DNA from: Prorocentrum cordatum
Lineage: Eukaryota
DNA: 64,000 nucleotides
Assembly (NCBI GenBank): GCA_963575745.1
Contig: CAUYUJ010000030.1
Coordinates: 1 to 64,000 of the forward strand
Reading direction: 5' to 3'
Part shown: piece by piece, positions 894 to 48,330 of the stretch
How positions within the stretch are numbered: the stretch's first letter is position 1
Layout: the number at the start of each line of letters is the position of its first letter
Translations under genes and position numbers: made by a program
Notes under the pieces: generated by a model
What the model saw: the letters and a program-made list of their open reading frames with translations, nothing else
What the model was told of the DNA's origin: nothing
Database searches by the model: none

Positions 894-1002
894 GCATCGT
901 CATCATCATCAGCAGCATCATCACCATCGTCGTCATCAGCATCATCATCATCATCAGCAGCACGATCATCAACATCATCATCAGCAGCATCAGCATCATC
1001 AA

Positions 1003-2360: not shown

Positions 2361-2842
2361 CTGCCAGTGCTAGTTCCCCGAATGTTGAGGCTGTCTCTTG
2401 CTCGCCTGCAAGATGACGTCTTCCCGCCCTCCTCACTCTCGGGGGTTGCTACAGGTGTTCCTGGCCCAAAATGCACCAGCAAGTCGCTCCATTTTGGAAC
2501 CCATTGGGCCCTCCGGGCCTCGTGAGGGCTGCTCCGGAAGCCGTGGGAGCCTCCTTTGAAATTCTGGGGGCACCTCCTCCTCCGTCTCCTCCTCCTCCTC
2601 CTCCTTTTCCTCCTCCTCCTCCTCCTCCTCCTGCGCGCAGGCTGAGCAAGGATGGATGGGGGGGAGGAGGAGGCACAGCGTCGTGCCGCGAGTTCTCCAT
2701 CTCTCTACGCTGCCTCCTGCGCCGCCCTATTCAGATCTACGGCTCGTCGAGCGGCTTTCGCAATCGAAAGGGCGACACGCGAGGCCAGGTGGGGGGGCAT
2801 CAGGGGCTCTGCACGCGTGCATCATGCGGTGCATCTGAAACG

Positions 2843-5800
2843 TCAAAGCCACATTCCTCGTGCGCGCTGGGGAAGGGACACAAGAGAGAGAGCGACGAGA
2901 GGGGGCGGCGGCAGAGGGCCTGAGGACATCCTCTCTACAAGGCCGCGGAAGTGAGGGCACACGAAATAGTGCTTGAGATTGCATCTCGCATCGCAGCCCA
3001 AGACACACCTGCGGTCGGGGTTCTGGAGACGAGCGTCCGTGACCCATCCGCCTAGCCAGATCTTGACGCATGCAATCCTCCGGGCAGGAGGGACCACAGC
3101 GTGGCACGCACGCACCAAGTCCCAGTCTATGTTGGCGACATCTCTAGGGGCTACTGGGAACCAGGTGGGGAGCCTCCTGCAAATCAGCTCGGACACAGAG
3201 GCTCTAAAAACCTCACCCTGTACTCGGATACGTATAACTCTGCTCTGGATTTGACTGAAAAGATCGTCCCGCCCGACCTCCCCACCCTCCCCCTCTATTT
3301 CCGCTCGGACGCGCGGCCGAGCTCCTGCGGCCAGGCGCGCGTCGAGGGAGGTGACCGCGCAGCTGATCCCCTCACTCACGTCTCGAATCATGTGGGCGGC
3401 CGACGGCGCTTGCCATAAGACGGGCCAGGGGGTCGCCACGGCCCTGGCCATGGCGGCGTCGCCATCGCCACCTCGTCAAGCCTGCTCGCGACGCCGCGCC
3501 ACGTGGAGACCGCGGCCGCGCCCGCTCTCATCCGCGAGGCCAGCGCGAACGCCTTCGCGGGGGTGCTCTGCGGCAGGCCGGGCTCAGTCAGGTGGAAGAA
3601 GTCGTTCCGTCGCAGCAGGCTCCCCGACGTCCGCAGGAGCCTGGTGGGGACGAACTGTTCGTCAGCATGCGGAGCTGGAGGCAGCGAGTGCATCTGCGCC
3701 TTGTAGCTCAGCACCGTGATCATCTTTGTCTGGCAGTCGCGCAGCAGCGTCGTTGGATCCAACGGAGCGGCGGCCGCAGCAGTGGCGCGCTGGCGCCACT
3801 TGGTGAGCGGGGCCCTCCACTGCTGCTCCAGCGTCACCGATGGCCCCAGCAGGCAGCCTAGCATCTCTAGCTGCGGCGCGACCGAGAAGCGTGCCCAACC
3901 AGGGCAAACCGACTCCAGCAGCTGCTGCACCTGCTGGGTGTCGTCGTGGGAGAAAAGGCCCTCCAGCGGTACACAGACGCACTTCGGCATCTCGAGAGCG
4001 AGTCCTGCCAGTCGTTCGCATGCACGGAATAGGCGCCCCAGGCATCGCACTCCTTCAAGGTTGACCGTCAACGCTCCGATATCGTCAGCACGCCAGCGAG
4101 CCAGGCCTCGGCGCCGAGACTCGAGCTGGTCCTCGTGAGCAGCGGTGAACGGGGAGACAGCAAGTGCGAACACCGTGCCAGAGAGGGGGTCTCCTTGGAG
4201 TACGCCTGACACGACGGCGAACATGACCGCCCGCGCATGGGATCATGATGAGCTCGAGCGCGCCACTCGGGGGACCCCAGTGCTGGGGCACCCGCCCGAT
4301 CCAGTCGCGGCGTACGCTCGGGAACGCCTGCGCAAAGTCAAAGCGGAAGAGGAAGGGGTGATTCCACGCAGACACAGCCGAGTCCGGTCTCTTGAGCGCC
4401 TCCATCGAGCGCCTGGAAGCGATGCGGGCGAGGCCGTCCATGTCGGTCACGTTCTCGATGAAATTGCGGTGCTGCACGAAACCTCTCTGGCCGGAGGGGG
4501 CCACCTTGGCGGCCGCCACGCTCAGGCACCTGTTGGCAGCACTCGCGATGGCCTTAGCGCCCGTGTTCTTCAGCATCAGAGGCCTCGTGTCCGTCGGGTC
4601 CCGGACCACCTCAGCGCCCTCCGAGTCAAGAACCTTCTTCGGAGGGTACACGCATGCACCATCACTGAAGCCGTCAGGCATGAGACTTCCACTCGTTATC
4701 CATTCCCTGCCTGCCGTGAGGACGTCAATGCCATATCGGTGGGCCCGCCACGCAGTGGCGGGAAGACCGTCAGGACCAGGCATGGCGGGCTTGGCTCTCG
4801 CCAGGGCCATCTCGATGTGCTTCGACGACGGCGATGGGGATCGTGTCCCAGTCAGGCTTGGGAGCACCGTACTTGGCCAGGAAGGTTTGCGACTGGCTCG
4901 AGCGCTGCCCTCGCTCGGCAGGCGCCTGGCGCGGCGGGCAGAAGACCCTGCCCCAGTGGGCCGCCAGCCCAGCATGCAGCTGCTCCGCCGTCTGCGTCTT
5001 GACCCCGTCGACGAGGAGGGCGCCAAGGTAGCGGCGGGACGGCGGCGCCCACAGGGCCGAGCGTCGCTGGAGTGCCCGCAGCTGTCCTCGTAGTCGCCAG
5101 TCAGGTGAAGCACCCAGCCCACGTCGTAGCTCAGCGCTCGACGCGCTGGCTTCCTTCCTCTGGGCGAGAGCGCGGCGGCGCATGAACGCGGGGGCGTTCG
5201 TGAGCCGCGCGCCCGCAACCTCGTCAATCTCCGTCATCTCGTTCAGCCATGCGTGTCTCTCCAGCAGCAGCGTGCCCACCTCGCGATCACGACGGGCCAG
5301 GGCGCGGGCAGCCTGCCTGCACAGCATGGCGACCGAGCTCTTGGACCAGGAGACATGACGCAGTAGCAAGTCACGCACCTCGCGGGGAGCAGCTTGCATG
5401 ATGCGAGAGCACGCGCGGCATCGGATGTCTGCCGACGTCTCCTCCAGCTGACACGCCTGAATGCACAGCTCGATCCTCCACCTGCAACTCTCATGCTGGA
5501 TGATGTGGGCCGCGATCGGGGCGGGCTTAGCGCGGGGGCGCGCCGCCGTGGGACGTGCGCGCCAGGTGGCCAGGGGCGGCGCGTGGTCACTGATGTTCTG
5601 TTTGTGGAGTACCTCAGGCTCGCCATGCACCTCCGCCACCTGCGCCGACTGACCAAGAAGCCAGGGCGGCCATCCCAAGACATTCTCGTCAATCCTGGAG
5701 GCGCGCCGGCGAGCAGGGCGCCAGTAGGTGACCCTCGGTCTCGGCGGCGCCGCGGAGGCTCTGGGCCCATCGCCTCTCCCGGGGCTGCGCGGCGCGAGCG

Positions 5801-6345
5801 ACGGTGCGCTCAGGGAACTCGAAGTTCTGGTGCTCCAGGTGGTCGCCGAAGTTGAAATCGCCTGAGATCACAACAACGCGTTCATCAGGTCTGTGGGCGG
5901 CCCATAAGAGATCACCCTGAATGCTGCCTTGCACTTGTCTTGCGACCGCTGCAGGGATATCAACGCAGCGAACATTCCAATGCACAAAAACTTCCCGGCC
6001 ACGCTGCTCCTGCACATCCTCGTAGTTGGCCGCGGCAACCCGCAGGATCCTACCTGGGACATTCTCTTCGTCTTGCCATAGAACTTCGCCAGGTCCCTGA
6101 AAACAGGGAAAGAGCGTGGCCACTCCACCCGAGCCTTCGCGTTCACCTGGAGCGAACGAAATAAAAACTTGCGCCCGTACTCCCGCTTTCTTGAGGAGGT
6201 CTCGTAGAAGAATTCAGCACTGCGCGCTTCCTGAAGACCCAGTACCACGGCATCTTGCCAAAACTTGCGGAGGAACGTCGCCCGCCTCATAGCCGCGCGT
6301 GCTTTGTGATGACAATGCGCGCGACAGTTCCAGGTGCCCATCTTC
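2843..6345 (-). pseudogene. LINE ORF2 (APE-RT), broken over at least 6 ORFs
   Basis: Colinear APE and RT motifs across ORFs 5868-7283 (end), 5689-6123, 4770-5678, 4085-5227, 3388-4224 and 2843-3451. Confidence 0.9.
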
Positions 6346-7985
6346 AAGGCTCCTGCGCGCCCCCATACTCGAGCAAAGGTGCTAAAGTACCCACTCTTGA
6401 GCTTCTGGCTCCACAAGCGGCTGCGCAGCGTCGTTGAGCCTCGCGCGTTTGAGCCCCATGTGGTCCAGCGCCCTCGCGTTCCACTGCGCCGCCGGTGTAG
6501 CACCTGGGGAGGGAACAGACACCTTGAGGAACTGACGCCAGCTGAGCGAGAGCGCGGCTTCGGAGTGGCGCGGGGCGATGGGGTTGACGAAGATCCGCTA
6601 GCCGACGACAGGTTCCACCATTTTGCGCATCTTCTTCGCCGTGATCTCCAGCGCGACCTGCCGTCCGTTCTTGTCCACTGAGAGGTAGATCTGGGTGGGC
6701 CCACCCGTGGGGAGCTTCGCCGAGAGTCCCCATCCAAGACACAGGTCCCTGCCCTGGCCAATCCGCATGCATCCCAGCAGTTTGCGTGCCCCCTGCTCCG
6801 CGAGGCTCGCATTGCCCTCCATGCGCATGATGAACTTGGTGCCCATCTCCTCCCCCTCGAACTTGTACTTGCCTGCGAGCTCCGCGAGCGTGACCACCTC
6901 TCGCAGCGCTCCATCCAGTGCGCTGATGTGGATCGGGACCTTGGACGTGACGACGACCACAGCTCTGTCGATGTCGCGCGACCATGCTGGCCCAGGCGAG
7001 GGGGGCAGGGGTCGTGCCTCCTCCATGATGCCAATGATGCGACACATGCGCTGCATCTCCGCCTCCAGCCTCGCCGTGGTGTCGGCGACCTCCTTGTGTG
7101 CACGAACCATATTTGCTCGATGCTCTTCGACATCTGCTCGTAGCTGGCTGCGACGTTGTTCCTGCGCTCGCACACAGGACTTGACCTCCTCGACCTGAGC
7201 CGCCAGTGCGGACTGAACTTGGCCCATGCCGTTGGACAGGATGGATCCCAGCGCGGCGCCCTGCCTGTCCAGCGCCGATCCACGAGCGCCGTGGCCGAGG
7301 GCTGGGGCCACTGTCAGGCGGGCTGGGCATCTCCTCCTCCACGGGTGGCTGGAAGTGTCGGAGTTATTCATCTGCGAGGCGTCGCGAAGCTGTGATGCAG
7401 CATCGGCCCAGGAGTCATGATGTCCAGCAGCGCGCCCGAGATGGTCTCCTTCCCTCCTCGGACCCATGGGTGGAACAGCAGCAGCAGCAGCAGCAGCCTC
7501 CTGCGTCGGGAAGGTCGGTGCATCTTCGATCTCTCTTGCGATTTGGCTCGGTGCGATGCCTCGAACTCCCGCTGCCTCCAGGGCCCTCTGCCAGTCTGAC
7601 GCCGGGCGCGCACGGAGTCGACCTTCATCTCGAGGCCGCGCTGCGCGGCGGGGGGCTGAGGCCGCGGCCGCGGCATCACCAGCAGCAGCATCGCGATGCT
7701 CACGGCGGCGACGACCGCGGCGCCCACCACTGCCCCCGCTGCGGCTTGCAGATCGAGCAGACGCGACAGGCGTGGTGCTCGCAGAACGTGCCGACTGCTC
7801 CGCGCTCTCCTCCTCCATTGCGGCTGCACTGGGTCTCTGAGCGCTCGGGGCGGCAAGAACAGGAAATGCCTCTGTTTACCCACCGCCCCGAGCGCAAGGA
7901 ACGTGAGAAGAAGGCCCTGCCAGACTTCAAGTAGTCTTGTCTGCCGCGGCCTAGCGGTATCCGCTCTCTCCCCTGGGGAAGACAT
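6344..7985 (-). pseudogene. LINE ORF1 (low-complexity N-terminus, coiled coil), frameshifted
   Basis: ATG 3 nt after the SL (7985); overlapping ORFs 7368-7985 and 6598-7818 with a heptad-like segment (QVQSALAAQVEEVK...LEAEMQRM) lie upstream of the endonuclease. Confidence 0.65.
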
Positions 7986-7988
7986 GAC

Positions 7989-8009
7989 CTTGAGCCAAAA
8001 TGGCTACGG
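7989..8009 (-). other. Perfect dinoflagellate spliced-leader sequence (21 nt)
   Basis: The + strand cttgagccaaaatggctacgg is the reverse complement of CCGTAGCCATTTTGGCTCAAG. Confidence 0.97.
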
Positions 8010-8027
8010 GGGGGAGGAGGAGGAGGA

Positions 8028-8058
<31 letters not shown>

Positions 8059-8397
8059 GAGGAGGAGGTGGAGGGGGAGGAGGTGGGGGTGGAGGGAGAG
8101 GAGGAGGAGGAGGAGGAGGAGGAGGAGGAGGAAGAGGAGGAGGAGGAGGAGGAGGAGGAGGAGGAGGAGGAGGAGGGAGGAGGAGAGGGAGGTGGAGGAG
8201 GAGGAGGGGAGGAGGAGGAGGAGGGGGAGGAGGAGGAGGAGGAGGAGGAGGGGGAGGAGGAGGAGGAGGAGGAGGAGGGGGAGGGGGAGGGGGAGGAGGA
8301 GGAGGAGGAGGAGGAGGGGAGGAGGAGGAGGAGGGAGGAGGAGGAGGAGGAGGAGGAGGAGGAGGAGGAGGAGGAGGAGGAGGAGGAGGGGGAGGAG
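8010..8397. repeat. (GGA)n/(CCT)n microsatellite
   Basis: Near-pure gag repeats. Confidence 0.97.
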
Positions 8398-8574
8398 GCA
8401 CTTCTGGCAACACCCTCCGCACCGCACCCGGCCCGCGCCTTCCGGCTCCGCGCAGCGGCTCCGCGGCCTGGCGGCGGCACTCGGAGAGGGAGAGGGGGCC
8501 TCTCGGACCCCGCCCCGCCGGAGTGGGCTGCTTCACCGATCCCAGGCGGCGGCTGCTGTAGGAGGAGGGAACGA

Positions 8575-8860
8575 GGGGAGGAGGGGAGGAGGGGAGAAGG
8601 GAGGGAGGAGAGGCTAGGAGAGGAGAGGAGAGGAGAAGAGAGGAGAGAGGAGAGGAGAGAGGAGAGAGGAGAGGAGAGGAGAGGAGAGAGAGAGAGAGAA
8701 GAGAGGAGAGGAGAGGAGAGGAGAGGAGAGGAGAGGAGAGGAGGAGAGGAGAGGAGAGGAGAGGAGAGGAGAGGAGAGGAGAGGAGAGGAGAGGAGAGGA
8801 GAGGAGAGGAGAGGGGAGGGGAGGGGAGAGGAGAGGAGAGGAGAGGGAGGGAGAAAGGAG
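8575..8860. repeat. (GAGAG)n pentamer microsatellite
   Basis: gaggagaggagag repeats. Confidence 0.93.
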
Positions 8861-34745: not shown

Positions 34746-37089
34746 TGTTTGACCACCTTACTGGGCCTGAGGGCGCCTTTCGCAGATCCTGCAGCTCAAT
34801 GTCCAGCAAAGGTGATCGACATGTGGTTGCGCAATCAGCAGGCACATCCAGATTTACGCCAGGTATGGCCTCAAATCGTGCGCTCATTGACAGGCCGACC
34901 CGGCAGGGAACAGGTCAGGCAAGTGCATGGGCTCATCTCAGCGGTTGTGCTCTGGCTCATACGTTTGGATTGGACGCCAGCGGAGCCAAGTATGTGGCCA
35001 TTCCGGGATGAGACGAAGGATTCTGTTGTGTCAACTTCCAGGTTCAATCTACACAGGCAATCAATAATTAGATATCCATCGGGGCTTGCTTTCTGAGATT
35101 CGGTCGGCGGCGGCAGCGAAACTTTGGAGGCAGGCAGCAAAGCACTGTTGTGGCAGTGGACTGGAGGCGGGAGCTGATATTGATTCCTACCGTGCCCTCC
35201 TCAAGTACTTGGAGGATGTTGATCCACGATTGTCCGAGGTGATGCCCAATGTTGCTACTGGTGCGGCCTGGCCCAAGCTACGAAATAAGGAGGTGGTCAA
35301 GAAATTCTCGGGCAGCACACTTCGCGATAAATGCGAGACACACGACGAGAGTCCCATGCACCGCAGCTGGCGATGAGCCAAGAACGAGCGGTCCAGTAGC
35401 CTGCTTCCCGAGGCGATGGCCCAAGCCGACAACTGCGAAGCCTCATGGCTGCGGGGAAGGCTCCCGACCCCCTGGGCTGCCGTGTCGCCCCCCCCCGTCA
35501 ACGGTGGAGGGCATCAGCGGCTTCGAACCAGGCGTCTTGGGACACGGCGCCCATGATGACCCCGCGTGGCGGTTCGGAGATGCATCGGGAGGCAAAGACA
35601 TGGCGATATCTAAGCTTCGATGCGTGGCGCTCGCTGCGGTGCGCATGGCTGGCTATGAGCAGTTGGCCTTCAGTGCGTGGTCCGCCCACGGGTGTTCGAC
35701 AGACGGTGCATCGAGGTGAGCTGAAGGCGTTTGCGATGGCGCTGATCGGTTCAACAGGAGATGCGGTGTACGTTTCAGATTGCGAGAATGTGGTTGCGGG
35801 CTGGCATGCTGGAGCCCATCTCTCCCCCAAAGGGGAGGGCGCGGACCTCCGGGAACTGGTGCGTGGCGCAGCCACGGGCAGAAGCGCGGTGGTGTTGTTC
35901 TCCGAGGTGGCCGACGAGGCGAGGCGGGCGGCGGACGAGAGGAGCCGAGTGCTCCAGTGCCAGAGGAAGGCGCACCTGGTGCGCCTCAGGCTGTTTAGGG
36001 CGGCGCCAGACAGCATGATGGCCGCCCAGGCCGCCGAGCGAGGGAGAATGTTGAGCCGTCCTGCCTCGGGCGTCCCGCCTCCTCCGCCGCTCCCTGCTGC
36101 CACCGCCGTCTCCGCCCTCCTCTCGTCTCATGTTTTGTCTGTTTGCCAGCATAAATGCACTAGATGCTTCTCGTCAGCGTCGAAAGCTAGCATGCGTGAA
36201 TGGTGGAGCAGCCAATGCGTTCAACTGTGTAACGTAGACGGTATGCTCATGTCCCCAAAGAAGGTCGAGCGAGTGCACAGAATGGGGGGCTGGCTCATCC
36301 GGCTCACTCTTCAAATGTACACTCGGGCACAGGGGTTTGGTCTTGTGGCCTGTGCGGTGCTATCGCTGAAAAGCAGCTGTGCTCCCTGGGTCAGCCTTGT
36401 AAGGGCTTCCTCGGTCTCACTGAAGCACGTAAAGAATACCTTGATCGGACTACGGCGGATAAGCCCCCAAATATTAACAGCCAAGCCGAGCTGAAGGCGA
36501 GGCCTCCTCCTCCTCCTCCTCCTCCTCCTCCTCCTCCTCCTCCTCCTCCTCCTCCTCCTCCTCCTCCTCCTCCTCCTCCTCCTCCTCCTCTGGCCCCCAG
36601 GGTGGCCTGCGGGGAGGTGGGTGAGCCTCTCGGTCGTTCACCGCAGGTCTCGGCCAAGCGCCGCATGCACTCGGAGGGCGGTGGGCGCAGGGCGGTGGGC
36701 TGGGCGGCTGAGGGCGCGAGCTCATCGGCGACACGCAAGACGAAGCCAGGACGAGGATAAGATAAGTCGAGAACCTCTGAGATCCAGCGGCTCTGGATGA
36801 TGTCTCGGGCGCCGCGCCCTTCTCAGAGCGTTCCGGGACGCTCTGGAACAGATTTATCCTCCTACTAGCCCCGTCCGAGACACGCCAGAGGGACCCCAGG
36901 TAAGAGCCTGGCTTCTGCGGGGCGCGGGGGGCTAAACCCCAGCGCCCAAGCCGCTGCTCTCGCATCGCATGTGGCGATCGGGGAGCCCCAGGCGGGCCCG
37001 CACCAGAGGTCACTCCGGCGAAGGGTCACCCCTGCGCGTAGCCGAGCTCCGAGTTGCGGATTGGCGGCCCTGGGCTCACGGTGGCGGCG

Positions 37090-47200: not shown

Positions 47201-48330
47201 TACAGAGAGTTTTTCCCATGGTCGTCTCAAAGACAGACCTGCGTTGGGCAACCAGGCTGATGTGTGAATCGACGCCGGAAATCGGAACTCTCACGATCTG
47301 CCCAGGGAGGGCCTCGGAGGACCCTGACGGCCCATGGGAACTCGAGGAGCGGGAATCTGGGGATGCTGCCCCTTCCGGCCCGGAGGAGGAGGAGGAGGAG
47401 GAGGAGGAGGAGGAGGAGGAGGAGGAGGAGGAGGAGGAGGAGGAGGAGGAGGAGTGGTAGGAGGAGGAGGAGGAGGAGGAGGAGGACGACGACGAAGAGG
47501 AGGAGAAGGAGGACCCGCCATGACCTCTGGAGCCGGCGCCCGTCGCAGCGGGCCGTGCGCGCCCTGCCCGGACAACTCGCGCTGGGCGAGCAGGCCTGCG
47601 CGGCGCCAGAGACAGCCTCGGCCTGCGCGCGGCGGCCCCGCGCCCGTCGCGGGCGGCGGGCCCGGCAGAGGGGTCGGCGGCGGGCGGCGGTCGCGATCTC
47701 AGGTTGTAGCCGCGACTTCCCAGACTCTGGACCAGCAGCGCCTGCCTTGTAGGGGGGCGGAGGAAGGCTTAAGCGTAGAAAAACTCGGAGGTATGCGCGG
47801 GTTCCTCGTATCGGCGCTGGACCCCCCCTCCCTGGCGCGCGGAGCGCGCCAGGGGCGGCGACGGAGGCGCCGCCAGGGGTCCCCAGCGCCCATCCGAGGA
47901 ATCCGCGCGGACCTCCGAGTTTTTATGTTTATGTCGTTCTTCGTTTCCCCATGTTTATGTCGTTCTTCGTTTCCCCATGCCTGTCGCGCAGCACGGGGTC
48001 CAGTCGCCGCCGCTTTTGCAAGGGCGGCGACGCCGCCGGCAGACTGCTCACCACCTCGCACTCTGCTGGCGCACCCGCGAGCGCGGCTCGCGCGCCGGCC
48101 CCCTCGAAGTCCAAGTCCTGCAGCAGGGCCACTAAGCCTGCCGCAGCGGCCCCGCCGACCGCCGGAGCGGCCGCTTGCCACCCAGCGGAGCTGCCGGCCG
48201 GCGTCGGCCCAGCAGCCGCCGCGGGAGCTGAGGCGCCGCGCCGCCCCGGCGGGCTGCCAGCGGCGAGCCGAGCTGGCGCTGCCTCGCCCGCGAGGGTGCC
48301 CGCCTCGGGGGACCGCCCGGCCAGGTCAAC
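37090..48330 (-). CDS. Multi-exon Ulp1/SENP8(DEN1)-like C48 cysteine protease; 5' end unresolved. Catalytic exons: ~45328-45160, ~44520/44383-44055, 38006-37903, 37260-37090. Upstream candidate exons: ~48330-47981, 47745-47525, 46427-~46285
   Basis: Colinear C48 motifs RLQDEHITFAMREL, VWAATPAQV, VLVLPV...GGHWSLLVV (His), LLDSL (Asp) and LQLDGFQCGCFCL (Gln oxyanion, Cys); the last three exons join in frame, each acceptor being AG|G. Confidence 0.78.
37261..37902 (-). mobile_element. Introner-like insertion forming the last protease intron (8-bp TSD, GA donor) with nested MITE(s)
   Basis: Direct repeat GGACGGCT (+ agccgtcc at 37254-37261 and 37896-37903); subterminal inverted repeat GCAAGTCGTGGGAGC / GCTCCCATGAGTTGC. 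Confidence 0.72.
37570..37746. mobile_element. Tc1/mariner-type MITE
   Basis: TA|CAGTGG...CCACTG|TA; same family as 33317-33510. Confidence 0.85.
38037..38277. mobile_element. MITE with ~50-bp TIRs and a TATTGCAA-repeat interior
   Basis: agggggtccagctgcaagggggtggtgcaatagatttgg / ccaaatctattgcacacccccttgtcgctggaccccct. Confidence 0.85.
40240..41430. repeat. Composite repeat with (GTC)n cores and a duplicated cccatcccat-G-run-gatcatatat module
   Basis: The module occurs at ~40693-40787 and ~41333-41428, each after a (GTC)n tract; a partial inverted counterpart lies near 40265-40325. Confidence 0.75.
41965..42903 (-). CDS. Intronless Cys-rich secreted protein of unknown function (312 aa); retrogene nested in the protease intron
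   Basis: Clean, non-repetitive ORF; signal peptide-like MATKVLIALASPVLAAAIVL; CDCMTWSDVY...CGRANE...CYDFF...CVN...QWCYVSNDC pattern; SL relic upstream. Confidence 0.88.
   Translation of the reverse strand: MATKVLIALASPVLAAAIVLKAEENATKAKSGSCDCMTWSDVYYTNKAVCGRANELYFLSKTGFSASYADTEPITGLPHKICYDFFKNFASPACVNIDLVPFPADEFSGQQWCYVSNDCANLNGGGYATNIEGFSQSSWHNLQSASQQAWKICDPTESDTPALSVKLVPEVVALGVESDVSLSQLLKLAYPAVNISWGEASLLWQAIDAAYEPGRTVTEMVDAVPELTGWGSEVVDRRLRAIAKSEQGTVLDSPGHGDIYHVVQGRAAYVVRRAADGNMAYLGGHFSQEYTVSCVIGCADAEPRNALDLSTL
42977..42990 (-). other. DinoSL relic
   Basis: CGTTTGGGCTCAAG compared with CATTTTGGCTCAAG (12/14), ~73 nt upstream of the ATG. Confidence 0.7.
43120..43435 (+). repeat. Short array of the GGAGCTCCCTATGGGGCCACGAAAC repeat family
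   Basis: Same ~90-bp unit as 52830-55215. Confidence 0.85.
44366..44511. mobile_element. MITE family C copy with 6-bp TSD at a protease exon start
   Basis: TIR gttatgtcggg...cccgacctaac; TSD atcagc at 44360-44365 and 44512-44517. Confidence 0.88.
46064..46250. mobile_element. MITE with G/C-run TIRs
   Basis: ggcgaaaggggggatagcaaagggggggttt / aacccccctttcccaatccccccctttcccc. Confidence 0.7.
47746..47980 (-). mobile_element. MITE family B forming a putative whole GC-AG intron
   Basis: Junction direct repeat AG|GCA at both ends; inverted aaaactcggagg / cctccgagtttt; excision joins PVLRDR-QALLVQSLGSRGYNLRS in frame. Confidence 0.72.

What the first reader, a model, noticed from the sequence alone, without database searches (positions are those of the whole stretch)
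2658..8023. Full-length LINE that starts with a perfect spliced leader, has no poly(A), and is bounded by a TSD in a (CCT)n tract
Seen: on the - strand the element begins exactly with the 21-nt DinoSL, followed 3 nt later by an ATG. It runs through ORF1, APE and RT and ends ...CACGACGCTGTG with no A-tail. The identical 16-mer G7AGGAGGAGG lies on both sides (2658-2673 and 8008-8023; 2 nt overlap the SL's CC, i.e. 5' microhomology). Established: DinoSL is added to mRNAs by trans-splicing, and TPRT generates TSDs. Inference: the element's RNA was SL-trans-spliced and fully reverse transcribed, so it may lack an internal promoter. It could instead use host read-through transcription plus trans-splicing to define its 5' end, with the SL-terminal AG re-serving as acceptor each cycle. 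The SL is intact although the ORFs carry many frameshifts.
Basis: partly seen in the sequence, partly recalled or inferred. Interest (0 to 1): 0.85.

Follow-up and report, generated by a model that had tools for sequence, protein, structure and literature searches.

The report
Spliced-leader-capped LINE copy in a dinoflagellate
A dead but full-length jumping gene (LINE) in a dinoflagellate genome starts exactly with the short leader that these algae splice onto their messenger RNAs, which suggests that a leader-capped element RNA was copied end to end back into the DNA.

Summary
On the - strand an exact 21-nt DinoSL (8009-7989) is followed by a 5,336-bp two-ORF element: a 170-nt 5'UTR, ORF1, an ORF2 with AP-endonuclease and reverse transcriptase, and a 169-nt 3'UTR with no A-tail. 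The 16-mer CCTCCTCCTCCCCCCC flanks it on both sides and occurs nowhere else in the window. Intact relatives carry Exo_endo_phos plus RVT_1, and the nearest solved structure is human L1 ORF2p. The sequence after the SL is not a canonical SL-RNA intron. The best reading (about 0.6) is that an SL-trans-spliced LINE transcript was fully reverse-transcribed and inserted by target-primed reverse transcription at the edge of a (CCT)n tract. It proposes a promoter-less family that relies on read-through transcription, trans-splicing and re-use of the SL's terminal AG. No second copy with a readable 5' end could be obtained. Two corrections: ORF1 starts at ATG 7818, not at the ATG 3 nt after the SL. 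An intact SL beside broken ORFs carries no statistical weight. Two contigs of one DNA run match upward from 7943 towards the SL and are unlike the element below it; this is unexplained and keeps a 5'-chimera reading alive. It is a new variant of a known kind (DinoSL-tagged retrocopies) and of moderate interest.

The parts
8013..8398 (-). (CCT)n target tract, a 386-bp near-pure pyrimidine run on the element's strand, immediately 5' of the insertion
   Evidence: Tandem Repeats Finder: period 3, 128.7 copies, 88% matches; sequence
8008..8023 (-). 5' copy of the 16-bp target-site duplication CCTCCTCCTCCCCCCC; its last 2 nt overlap the SL
7989..8009 (-). DinoSL, 21 of 22 nt, exact; the first (D) nucleotide is absent
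7819..7988 (-). 170-nt 5'UTR. It begins GTCATG and has a splice-acceptor-like TCTTCCCCAG|G at about 7973. About 45 nt proximal to the ORF1 ATG resemble the relative P0169.
7842..7895 (-). Strong hairpin in the 5'UTR with a 13-bp perfect stem (GCGCUCGGGGCGG / CCGCCCCGAGCGC)
   Evidence: Fold of the SL plus 5'UTR: -85.5 kcal/mol, z = -3.66, 0 of 200 shuffles as stable
6382..7818 (-). ORF1 (478 codons): disordered N-terminus, long coiled coil and a C-terminal alpha/beta domain. An in-frame TAG at 6600-6598 stands where relatives have Q.
2843..6341 (-). ORF2, about 1,166 codons. AP endonuclease at about 6341-5370, reverse transcriptase at about 4920-3460, and a Cys/His knuckle CX3CX7HX3C at 3007-2957. 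Frame changes lie near 6190, 5727, 4850, 4235 and 3445.
   Evidence: tblastn of intact relatives, E down to 1e-70; the relatives carry Exo_endo_phos and RVT_1; family profile against PDB
2674..2842 (-). 169-nt 3'UTR ending ...CGACGCTGTG, with no poly(A) and no significant structure
   Evidence: z = 0.20
2658..2673 (-). 3' copy of the 16-bp target-site duplication, isolated and followed by unique sequence ATCCATCC...

Best explanation
This is a dead, full-length copy (5,336 bp) of an AP-endonuclease-type LINE of a Prorocentrum-like dinoflagellate. It was made from an element RNA that carried the dinoflagellate spliced leader at its 5' end.

Most likely sequence of events:
1. A LINE transcript was trans-spliced to the SL like other nuclear pol II transcripts of dinoflagellates. 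The transcript came either from the element's own start or from a longer read-through RNA.
2. The LINE machinery nicked the bottom strand inside an (AGG)n/(CCT)n microsatellite.
3. Reverse transcription started at the element's own 3' end, not at a poly(A) tail, and ran to the SL.
4. The top strand was cut 16 nt downstream.
5. Second-strand synthesis was primed through a 2-nt CC microhomology. This cost the first SL nucleotide and produced the 16-bp duplication.

Shown: the anatomy, the exact SL, the duplication enclosing SL plus LINE, the APE and RT homology, and the lack of an SL-RNA intron. Inferred: the trans-splicing step, the order of the nicks, and whether the ORFs broke before or after insertion.
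For: The exact SL is unique in the window and abuts the element. The 16-mer occurs only at the two ends, and its 3' copy is isolated in unique sequence; it is the only isolated recurrence among 4,457 microsatellite-adjacent positions.

The element is complete. ORF1 has relatives at 61-73% identity. ORF2 is colinear with intact relatives of 1,150-1,500 aa. Of 17 relatives scanned, 16 have RVT_1 and 14 have Exo_endo_phos. The family profile hits human LINE-1 ORF2p at 6e-42 and R2 at 5e-24. Contigs that encode intact relatives are 4.1-5.2 kb long, close to this element's length.

The post-SL sequence lacks the GTAC start, hairpin and T-run seen in 6 canonical SL-RNA genes among 155 SL sites. A covariance model of those 6 matches only the exon plus GU.

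Published background supports the reading. DinoSL-tagged retrocopies are abundant, the reverse-transcribing machinery is stated to be unknown, and 'RNA-dependent DNA replication' genes are enriched among DinoSL retrogenes (PMC5585692, passages and section 11 read).

A 93-aa EukProt protein is 100% identical to this copy's RT frame. This hints at transcription, if that data set is a transcriptome, which could not be verified.
Against: Only one copy could be examined, so it is not shown that the 170-nt leader is the family's own 5'UTR along its whole length. Only about 45 nt next to the ORF1 ATG resemble a relative.

Two X1 contigs match upward from 7943 towards the SL and continue below 7943 with about 131 nt unlike the element. 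That unlike sequence is not found anywhere in the window.

The SL is followed by GT, as in an SL-RNA gene. The chance of this is 1 in 16 under trans-splicing.

No RNA evidence was available. The duplication lies in low-complexity DNA: a generous null gives 6.2% recurrence. The junctions have no independent read support, because the identical X1 contig covers only 7743-7971.
Confidence: 0.6

Rival explanations
1. The whole family has no promoter of its own. Copies are transcribed by read-through from upstream, trans-splicing defines the 5' end, and the AG that ends the genomic SL is re-used as the acceptor. Every generation would then carry exactly one perfect SL.
For: There is a single perfect SL with no relic array. 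The copy sits in sense orientation directly behind a 386-nt pyrimidine tract, an ideal acceptor context. Two X1 contigs match upward from 7943 towards the SL, which would fit a conserved SL-proximal leader if they reach the SL. Song et al. propose that the SL's TTT(T/G) motif can act as a portable core promoter (PMC5585692, section 11 read).
Against: No second 5' end was seen. The first AG after the pyrimidine tract is the internal one (CCGTAG|CC). Using it would give the usual SL plus relic form, which papers report as the common form (PMC12014239 and PMC6616646, passages read). The structured 170-nt 5'UTR with a strong hairpin could itself hold a promoter. No recognisable host gene lies in the window to supply read-through: 0 of 101 long ORFs outside the element and the adjacent repeat tract reach a Pfam cut-off.
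Confidence: 0.2
2. 5' chimera. Reverse transcription reached the 5' end of a LINE RNA, or a point inside it, and then switched template to the 5' end of another SL-bearing RNA. That RNA could be an mRNA or an SL-like small RNA. [quoted passage not shown] SL plus about 45 nt would then be foreign to the LINE.
For: Two X1 contigs match from 7943 upward and diverge below it (loose end 'before 7943', median 131 nt, agreement 0.92). Depth in bin 7916-8112 is 29.6, against 0.03-11.4 in the other bins within the element (2794-7915). Part of that bin is skipped repeat, so this is weak. The SL is followed by GT. MAFFT finds a faint likeness of 7966-7944 to the SL-RNA hairpin region. LINE-1 chimeric insertions with other RNAs are documented (PMC13174262, listing abstract only).
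Against: The canonical SL-RNA features are absent: GTAC, hairpin and T-run. The covariance model drops 33 intron positions. No T-run lies at the putative joint, GGCCGCGGC|AGACAAG. The two contigs could equally be other subfamilies with a different 5'UTR module. It is not known whether those contigs contain the SL, because 8002-8300 was skipped as repeat.
Confidence: 0.12
3. Master copy in an SL-RNA gene. A founder element inserted just behind the SL exon of an SL-RNA gene and is co-transcribed from that gene's promoter. Its RNA would then begin with the SL without any trans-splicing, and this copy would be a descendant.
For: The GT directly after the SL would be the first two intron bases. The family would gain a strong promoter. 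LINEs that live in SL-RNA genes exist elsewhere (SLACS, CZAR, CRE and NeSL; recalled, not read here).
Against: Only 2 nt of the intron would be retained. The known SL-gene LINEs use a different endonuclease type and interrupt the exon (recalled). No such master copy was seen. In dinoflagellates trans-splicing of nuclear mRNAs is the rule, so trans-splicing is the simpler route.
Confidence: 0.06
4. Coincidence or artefact. Either the LINE inserted next to a pre-existing SL relic, or the junction is a mis-assembly and the 16-mer match is a by-product of microsatellite DNA.
For: The window holds 60 CCT/AGG-type tracts of 15 nt or more. Pure-repeat 16-mers recur often. There is no independent read support for either junction.
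Against: There is one SL in 64 kb and it lies exactly at the end of the duplication-bounded unit. The 16-mer with its C7 run is unique to the two ends, and the 3' copy is isolated. The sequence that follows 7943 in the other contigs does not reappear after the LINE's 3' end, so the LINE did not split a retrogene leader.
Confidence: 0.02

Closest known systems
DinoSL-tagged retrocopies or 'retrogenes' of dinoflagellates (mRNA recycling; Slamovits & Keeling 2008 as cited in the papers read; Song et al. 2017, PMC5585692)
   Same: A DNA-encoded spliced leader lies at the 5' end of a retro-inserted transcript copy. RT-related genes are reported as enriched among such retrogenes.
   Different: Here the copied RNA is the retrotransposon itself, complete with ORF1, APE and RT. 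It has a clean 16-bp duplication and no poly(A) or relic array. In the papers I could search, neither a duplication around an SL retrocopy nor an SL-capped LINE is described. Supplements were not examined.
Full-length LINE insertions by target-primed reverse transcription (L1 type)
   Same: Two ORFs, APE plus RT, a target-site duplication, and microhomology at the 5' junction. The nearest solved structure is human L1 ORF2p.
   Different: There is no poly(A) tail. The target is a purine-rich (AGG)n bottom strand rather than TTTT/AA (recalled). The 5' end is a host spliced leader rather than the element's own transcription start. The clade is not assigned.
LINEs whose 5' end is set by RNA processing or special 5' modules in trans-splicing or co-transcribed settings (L1Tc Pr77 plus HDV-like ribozyme, PMC1874656 and PMC3185411, listing abstracts only; R2 ribozyme, recalled)
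   Same: In each case the 5' end of the retrotransposed RNA would be defined by an RNA-processing event rather than by a conventional upstream promoter.
   Different: Those elements use a self-cleaving ribozyme, and L1Tc transcripts are described as unspliced. Here the host trans-splicing machinery would do the job. No ribozyme family was found in 7600-8100.
SL-gene-specific LINEs (SLACS, CZAR, CRE of trypanosomatids; NeSL-1 of nematodes); recalled, not read here
   Same: A LINE is physically joined to spliced-leader sequence.
   Different: Those elements insert into SL-RNA genes at a fixed site inside the exon, so the SL is flanking DNA. Here the whole SL lies inside the duplication, the flanks are a (CCT)n tract, and no SL-RNA intron follows.
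[quoted passage not shown]
   Same: A foreign RNA's sequence is fused to the 5' side of LINE sequence within one duplication-bounded insertion.
   Different: The LINE part here is full-length rather than 5'-truncated, and the partner does not look like the canonical SL RNA. This reading remains a rival.

Membership tests
APE-type non-LTR retrotransposon (LINE) | Reverse transcriptase domain of the LINE type | tested here: met
   The frame pieces alone give no Pfam hit (0 of 7). phmmer of piece 4085-5233 finds 1,054 proteins at E<=1e-3. Of 17 relatives scanned, 16 carry RVT_1. tblastn of those relatives onto the element reaches E 1e-70. The family profile hits L1 ORF2p at 6e-42.
APE-type non-LTR retrotransposon (LINE) | N-terminal apurinic/apyrimidinic-like endonuclease in ORF2 | tested here: met
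   Of the 17 relatives, 14 carry Exo_endo_phos. Their N-terminal 40-300 residues align to window 6200-5370. The profile also hits exonuclease III and APE1 structures.
APE-type non-LTR retrotransposon (LINE) | Target-site duplication flanking the whole unit | tested here: met
   A 16-bp exact duplication is unique to the two ends. The caveat is low-complexity context.
APE-type non-LTR retrotransposon (LINE) | Repeated in the genome with diverged, often partial copies | tested here: met
   122 contigs of run X1 lay on the stretch; 115 of them are under 95% alike (20 at 90-95%, 95 under 90%), and 27 of the 28 bins within the element have cover. A Prorocentrum cordatum gene model (P0003) runs through another copy at 60-81% amino-acid identity. 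There is no second copy in this window.
L1 clade specifically | L1-type ORF1 (coiled coil, RRM, CTD; Pfam Transposase_22) and a poly(A) tail | tested here: inconclusive
   No Transposase_22 hit was found. The AlphaFold model shows a confident coiled coil followed by strands and helices in a beta-alpha-beta-beta-alpha-beta order, but that part has pLDDT below 50 and the mean pLDDT is 47, so no fold search was run. There is no poly(A). An RT phylogeny with named clade references could not be built here.
DinoSL-tagged retrocopy | DNA-encoded DinoSL directly upstream of the copied transcript | tested here: met
   21 of 21 nt match at the 5' end of the unit.
DinoSL-tagged retrocopy | Relic SLs (CCATTTTGGCTCAAG arrays) from repeated recycling | tested here: not met
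   There is a single SL and no further relic at up to 2 mismatches. This feature is not required for membership; it marks repeated rounds only.
SL-RNA gene | SL exon followed by the conserved intron (GTAC..., hairpin) and a T-run terminator | tested here: not met
   Six canonical genes were recovered from MAG contigs. The covariance model R1 matches only the exon plus GU in the window, skips 33 intron positions, and finds no T-run. A published probe implies CTCAAG|GTACA (PMC3101222, Table 1 passage read).
SL-gene-specific LINE (SLACS/CZAR/NeSL type) | Insertion inside an SL-RNA gene with the SL as flanking target DNA | tested here: not met
   The SL lies inside the duplication, the flanks are (CCT)n and unique DNA, and there is no SL-RNA intron and no array. 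The family definition is recalled.
   No genome is held. No RNA run was listed. Scans of metagenome, viral and MAG collections found no relative's DNA.

The most novel reading that the evidence does not exclude
This LINE family is a parasite of the trans-splicing system. It inserts in sense orientation behind polypyrimidine (CCT)n microsatellites. Each new copy would therefore sit behind a ready-made trans-splice acceptor context, with the acceptor AGs supplied by the SL it brings along. Host read-through RNA would be cut and capped by the SL to give a translatable element RNA that can be retrotransposed. The SL would be carried along as a portable TTTT core promoter. The same machinery, which copies SL-capped RNA to the very end, would be the long-sought engine that makes the thousands of DinoSL-tagged retrogenes of dinoflagellates.
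Probability: 0.15. Interest if true: 0.85.

Novelty: new variant of a known kind. Interest (0 to 1): 0.5.

Why it matters
Dinoflagellate genomes hold thousands of gene copies that still carry the spliced leader. The papers I read state that the enzyme which makes these copies is unknown, and they lean towards LTR elements (PMC5585692 section 11; PMC6050394 passages).

This locus shows, in one clean case, an APE-type LINE that is itself SL-capped. It is enclosed by a 16-bp duplication typical of target-primed reverse transcription. This makes LINE machinery a concrete candidate for the retrogene engine, and it implies that LINE transcripts enter the trans-splicing pathway.

If the pattern holds for the whole family, it would be a new way for a LINE to obtain its 5' end. 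It could be tested with an existing genome assembly and long-read cDNA. On present evidence it is a single dead copy.

Tried and rejected
- Whole genome: none is held for this window.
- Sequencing runs: no RNA holder was listed. One DNA run (X1) holds 16% of the words; X2 and X3 hold next to none.
- Laid contigs: they are short, and 2597-2793 and 8113-8300 have no cover, which says nothing.
- Metagenome contigs: the ORF1 alignment found no relative (598 pattern hits, 0 confirmed). The 22-nt SL/leader junction found 0 matches.
- Viral contigs: the ORF2 alignment gave 53 pattern hits, 0 confirmed.
- Five MAG records with dinoflagellate contigs: 0 of 5 hold a LINE ORF2 match.
- Loci with an exact DinoSL (139 held, 155 distinct SL sites): 29 LINE protein queries gave 0 hits. 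The same queries gave 76 HSPs on the window as a positive control.
- Protein search with the frame opened by the ATG 3 nt after the SL: nothing.
- Earlier findings of this scan: nothing.
- Pfam on the 7 broken frame pieces: no domain.
- PDB search with single pieces: only a weak R2 hit, E 0.054.
- Rfam: no family at gathering score in the window, and only chance-level hits in 7600-8100.
- Folds: the first 67 nt are not unusual (z -1.59). The 3'UTR is not unusual (z 0.20).
- ORF1 structure: mean pLDDT 47, so no fold search was run.
- Duplications around other SL retrocopies: 0 of 17 GC-rich SL sites show a repeat of 10 nt or more of their upstream flank. Many of those contigs are short, so this is only a rough control.
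- Host genes that could supply read-through: 101 of the 120 long ORFs were scanned; the 19 left out overlap the element and the adjacent repeat tract. 0 reach a Pfam cut-off.
- Rejected: insertion of the LINE into a retrogene leader, because the continuation seen in X1 contigs does not follow the LINE's 3' end.
- Rejected: a canonical SL-RNA gene.

Full report
**What is there**

Read on the - strand, the order of features is:
- a 386-bp (CCT)n tract (8398-8013) ending in CCTCCTCCTCCCCCCC (8023-8008);
- the exact 21-nt DinoSL CCGTAGCCATTTTGGCTCAAG (8009-7989), overlapping the last two C of that 16-mer;
- 5,315 further bases, ending ...CGACGCTGTG at 2674;
- the same 16-mer again (2673-2658), followed by unique sequence.

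The SL is the only match in the 64-kb window at up to 3 mismatches, with 0.00 expected. The 15-nt relic form at up to 2 mismatches is also found only there. The base in front of the SL is C, so the variable first nucleotide of the 22-nt leader is missing. blastn of the element against the window finds no second copy.

**Is the duplication more than chance?**

The window is 62% G+C and holds 60 CCT/AGG-type tracts of 15 nt or more, so this needed a control.
- The 16-mer occurs twice on 128 kb of strand, only at the two ends. The 14-mer without the last two C occurs 12 times.
- For 4,457 positions that abut such microsatellite, the upstream 16-mer recurs 4.8-5.9 kb downstream in 277 (6.2%), almost always as pure repeat. 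For a sample of all positions the figure is 43 of 16,516.
- Within 200 nt of the real spacing it recurs in 77 of 4,457. It recurs as an isolated copy in 1 of 4,457, which is this pair itself.

The 5' boundary is fixed independently by the SL. The 3' boundary is not fixed independently, because there is no A-tail and no second copy. I accept the pair as a target-site duplication, with the caveat that it lies in simple sequence.

**What the element is**

Stop-to-stop frames and relatives give this anatomy:
- ORF1 runs from ATG 7818 to ...QEWVL* at 6382. An in-frame TAG at 6600-6598 stands where two relatives from environmental assemblies have Q (P0001, 61% identity, E 4.8e-105; P0002, 73%).
- A longer cluster member, P0169, aligns from the same methionine. 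It also resembles the 45 nt in front of it.
- The ATG 3 nt after the SL therefore opens another frame and is probably not the ORF1 start. A protein search with that frame found nothing.
- ORF2 starts at 6341 and ends at 2845-2843.

The broken pieces of ORF2 give no Pfam hit (0 of 7). A full HMMER pass with piece 4085-5233 finds 1,054 proteins at E<=1e-3. Of 17 relatives scanned, 16 carry RVT_1 and 14 carry Exo_endo_phos. Mapped back by tblastn, those relatives are colinear with the element, with frame changes near 6190, 5727, 4850, 4235 and 3445. A profile of 14 intact relatives hits human LINE-1 ORF2p at 6e-42, R2 proteins at about 5e-24, and exonuclease III/APE1 with its N-terminus.

Contigs that encode intact relatives are 4.1-5.2 kb long, close to this element's 5,336 bp. 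It is therefore a full-length but dead APE-type LINE. The clade is not assigned, because no named reference set was at hand. The ORF1 model has a confident coiled coil but is otherwise too poor to search with (mean pLDDT 47).

**Whose genome**

Named relatives are Prorocentrum cordatum proteins (P0003, P0005, P0154). P0003 is a gene model spliced through another copy and is 60-81% identical. DNA run X1 holds 122 contigs that lie on the stretch, 115 of them under 95% alike (20 at 90-95%, 95 under 90%), plus a few identical pieces. The family is therefore repeated and old. A 93-aa EukProt entry is 100% identical to this copy's RT frame. This is a hint that this copy or a twin is transcribed, but I could not verify that the entry comes from RNA.

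**Is the SL part of an SL-RNA gene?**

Scanning public contigs for the exact SL gave 139 loci and 155 distinct SL sites. Six sites are canonical SL-RNA genes, in L125, L132 (two), L126 (two) and L138. In each the SL is followed by GTAC, a roughly 30-nt hairpin and a T-run. This agrees with a published probe that implies CTCAAG|GTACA (PMC3101222, Table 1 passage).

The element continues GTCATGTCTTCCCCAGGGG... and has no T-run. A covariance model of the six genes matches only the exon plus GU and skips 33 intron positions. Rfam gives nothing. None of the 155 sites has a LINE of this group within 6.5 kb, and none of the 139 loci holds one anywhere. The positive control on the window gave 76 HSPs. 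SL-LINE adjacency is not a general by-product of SL sites.

**How it most likely arose**

The duplication encloses SL plus LINE as one unit, so an RNA that began with the SL and ended at the LINE's 3' end was copied in full. In dinoflagellates the ordinary way for a nuclear transcript to acquire the SL is trans-splicing (papers read: PMC5585692, PMC12014239, PMC7245778). I therefore take trans-splicing of a LINE transcript as the most likely source, at about 0.6.

Several steps are inferred from the TPRT model and not shown here:
- The missing poly(A) suggests that reverse transcription started at the element's own 3' end.
- The 16-bp duplication suggests staggered nicks, the first in the (AGG)n bottom strand.
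- The CC overlap and the missing first SL nucleotide fit microhomology-primed second-strand synthesis.

The broken ORFs may predate the insertion, if a dead copy's RNA was mobilised in trans, or may follow it. Six disabling changes in 5.3 kb predict about 0.06 such changes in the 53 nt of SL plus both duplication copies, so the intact SL says nothing either way.

**What stays open**

It holds that the family has no promoter, lives on read-through plus trans-splicing, and re-uses the SL's terminal AG. I could get neither.

The local context is suggestive. The copy lies in sense orientation right behind a long pyrimidine tract. The first AG after that tract is the internal AG of the SL. Splicing there would give the usual SL plus relic form, not a single SL. 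The 5'UTR also has a very stable hairpin (z -3.66) and could hold its own promoter.

Two X1 contigs match from 7943 upward, towards the SL, and continue below 7943 with about 131 nt unlike the element. That unlike sequence is absent from the window. This could be a 5'UTR module shared among subfamilies. It could also be a sign that SL plus 45 nt came from another RNA by template switching. A founder copy co-transcribed from an SL-RNA gene is a further, less likely, route. No recognisable host gene lies in the window.

**Comparison and novelty**

DinoSL-tagged retrocopies are well known. RT-related genes are reported as enriched among them, and the enzyme responsible is stated to be unknown (PMC5585692 section 11; PMC6050394 passages). 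I found no paper describing a LINE capped by the DinoSL, or a target-site duplication around an SL retrocopy. Only open-access full text was searched and supplements were not examined.

The locus is a new variant of a known kind and is of moderate interest. It is a clean single example that ties APE-LINE integration to SL-capped RNA. A family-wide survey would decide whether it amounts to more.

Noticed in passing
IMG/VR loci L001-L119, e.g. L013:620-640(-), 4103-4123(+), 6001-6021(+): The exact DinoSL is DNA-encoded in 119 IMG/VR stretches, mostly AT-rich 'GVMAG' contigs up to 267 kb long. It is preceded by conserved AT-rich motifs (AAATATAAATTTTA or ATTTTACTAAACCA). In L013 it lies 37-50 nt upstream of three of the five long intron-less ORFs. 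The five ORFs include an NAD-dependent DNA ligase, a NADAR protein and a GT41 glycosyltransferase. This looks like giant-virus-like genomes writing the host spliced leader in front of their genes. One search found no paper whose title or listed abstract start bears on it; the 16 papers holding all three terms were not read.
   Followed up: partly
L125:5950-6021(-), L132:2099-2170(+) and 2657-2728(-), L126:51-122(-) and 921-992(-), L138:4283-4354(-): Canonical dinoflagellate SL-RNA genes (SL, GTAC, hairpin, T-run) sit on contigs filed under bacterial MAGs (Woeseiaceae, Planctomycetaceae, Deltaproteobacteria, Dehalococcoidia). These bins therefore carry dinoflagellate DNA.
   Followed up: partly
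L123:1-52, L133:90-137, L120:1-59, L135:1-55: GC-rich SL-bearing retrocopies on MAG contigs are directly preceded by simple repeats: (ATC)n, (AG)n, (TG)n and GACA-like. This is reminiscent of the (CCT)n target here. It may reflect a microsatellite preference of the retroposition machinery, or only assembly breaks. No duplications were found, but the contigs are short.
   Followed up: partly
window 7943-8009 (-): Two contigs of run X1 match from 7943 upward, towards the SL, and continue below 7943 with about 131 nt of unrelated sequence (agreement 0.92). Summed depth in bin 7916-8112 is 29.6, against 0.03-11.4 in the other bins within the element. Unexplained.
   Followed up: partly
window 2484-2543: A short stretch about 130 nt beyond the LINE's 3' duplication is highly repeated in run X1. 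Some 26-35 contigs cover it, summed depth is about 670-1,500, and there are many loose ends on both sides. It may be a short interspersed repeat.
   Followed up: no
window 7842-7895 (-): A 13-bp perfect inverted repeat in the LINE 5'UTR gives an unusually stable fold (z -3.66). No Rfam family matches it.
   Followed up: partly
whole window; e.g. 8013-8398, 8573-8851, 36503-36589, 47382-47453: The window is saturated with CCT/AGG-type microsatellites: 60 tracts of 15 nt or more, plus a GAGGA-type array of period 5/10/15 at 8573-8851. It has no ORF with a Pfam domain outside the LINE.
   Followed up: no
proteins P0006 and P0154: A EukProt entry labelled Pyramimonas sp. CCMP1952 (P0006, a LINE RT) shares a 90%-identity cluster with a Prorocentrum cordatum protein (P0154). 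This suggests cross-contamination or mislabelling in that data set.
   Followed up: no
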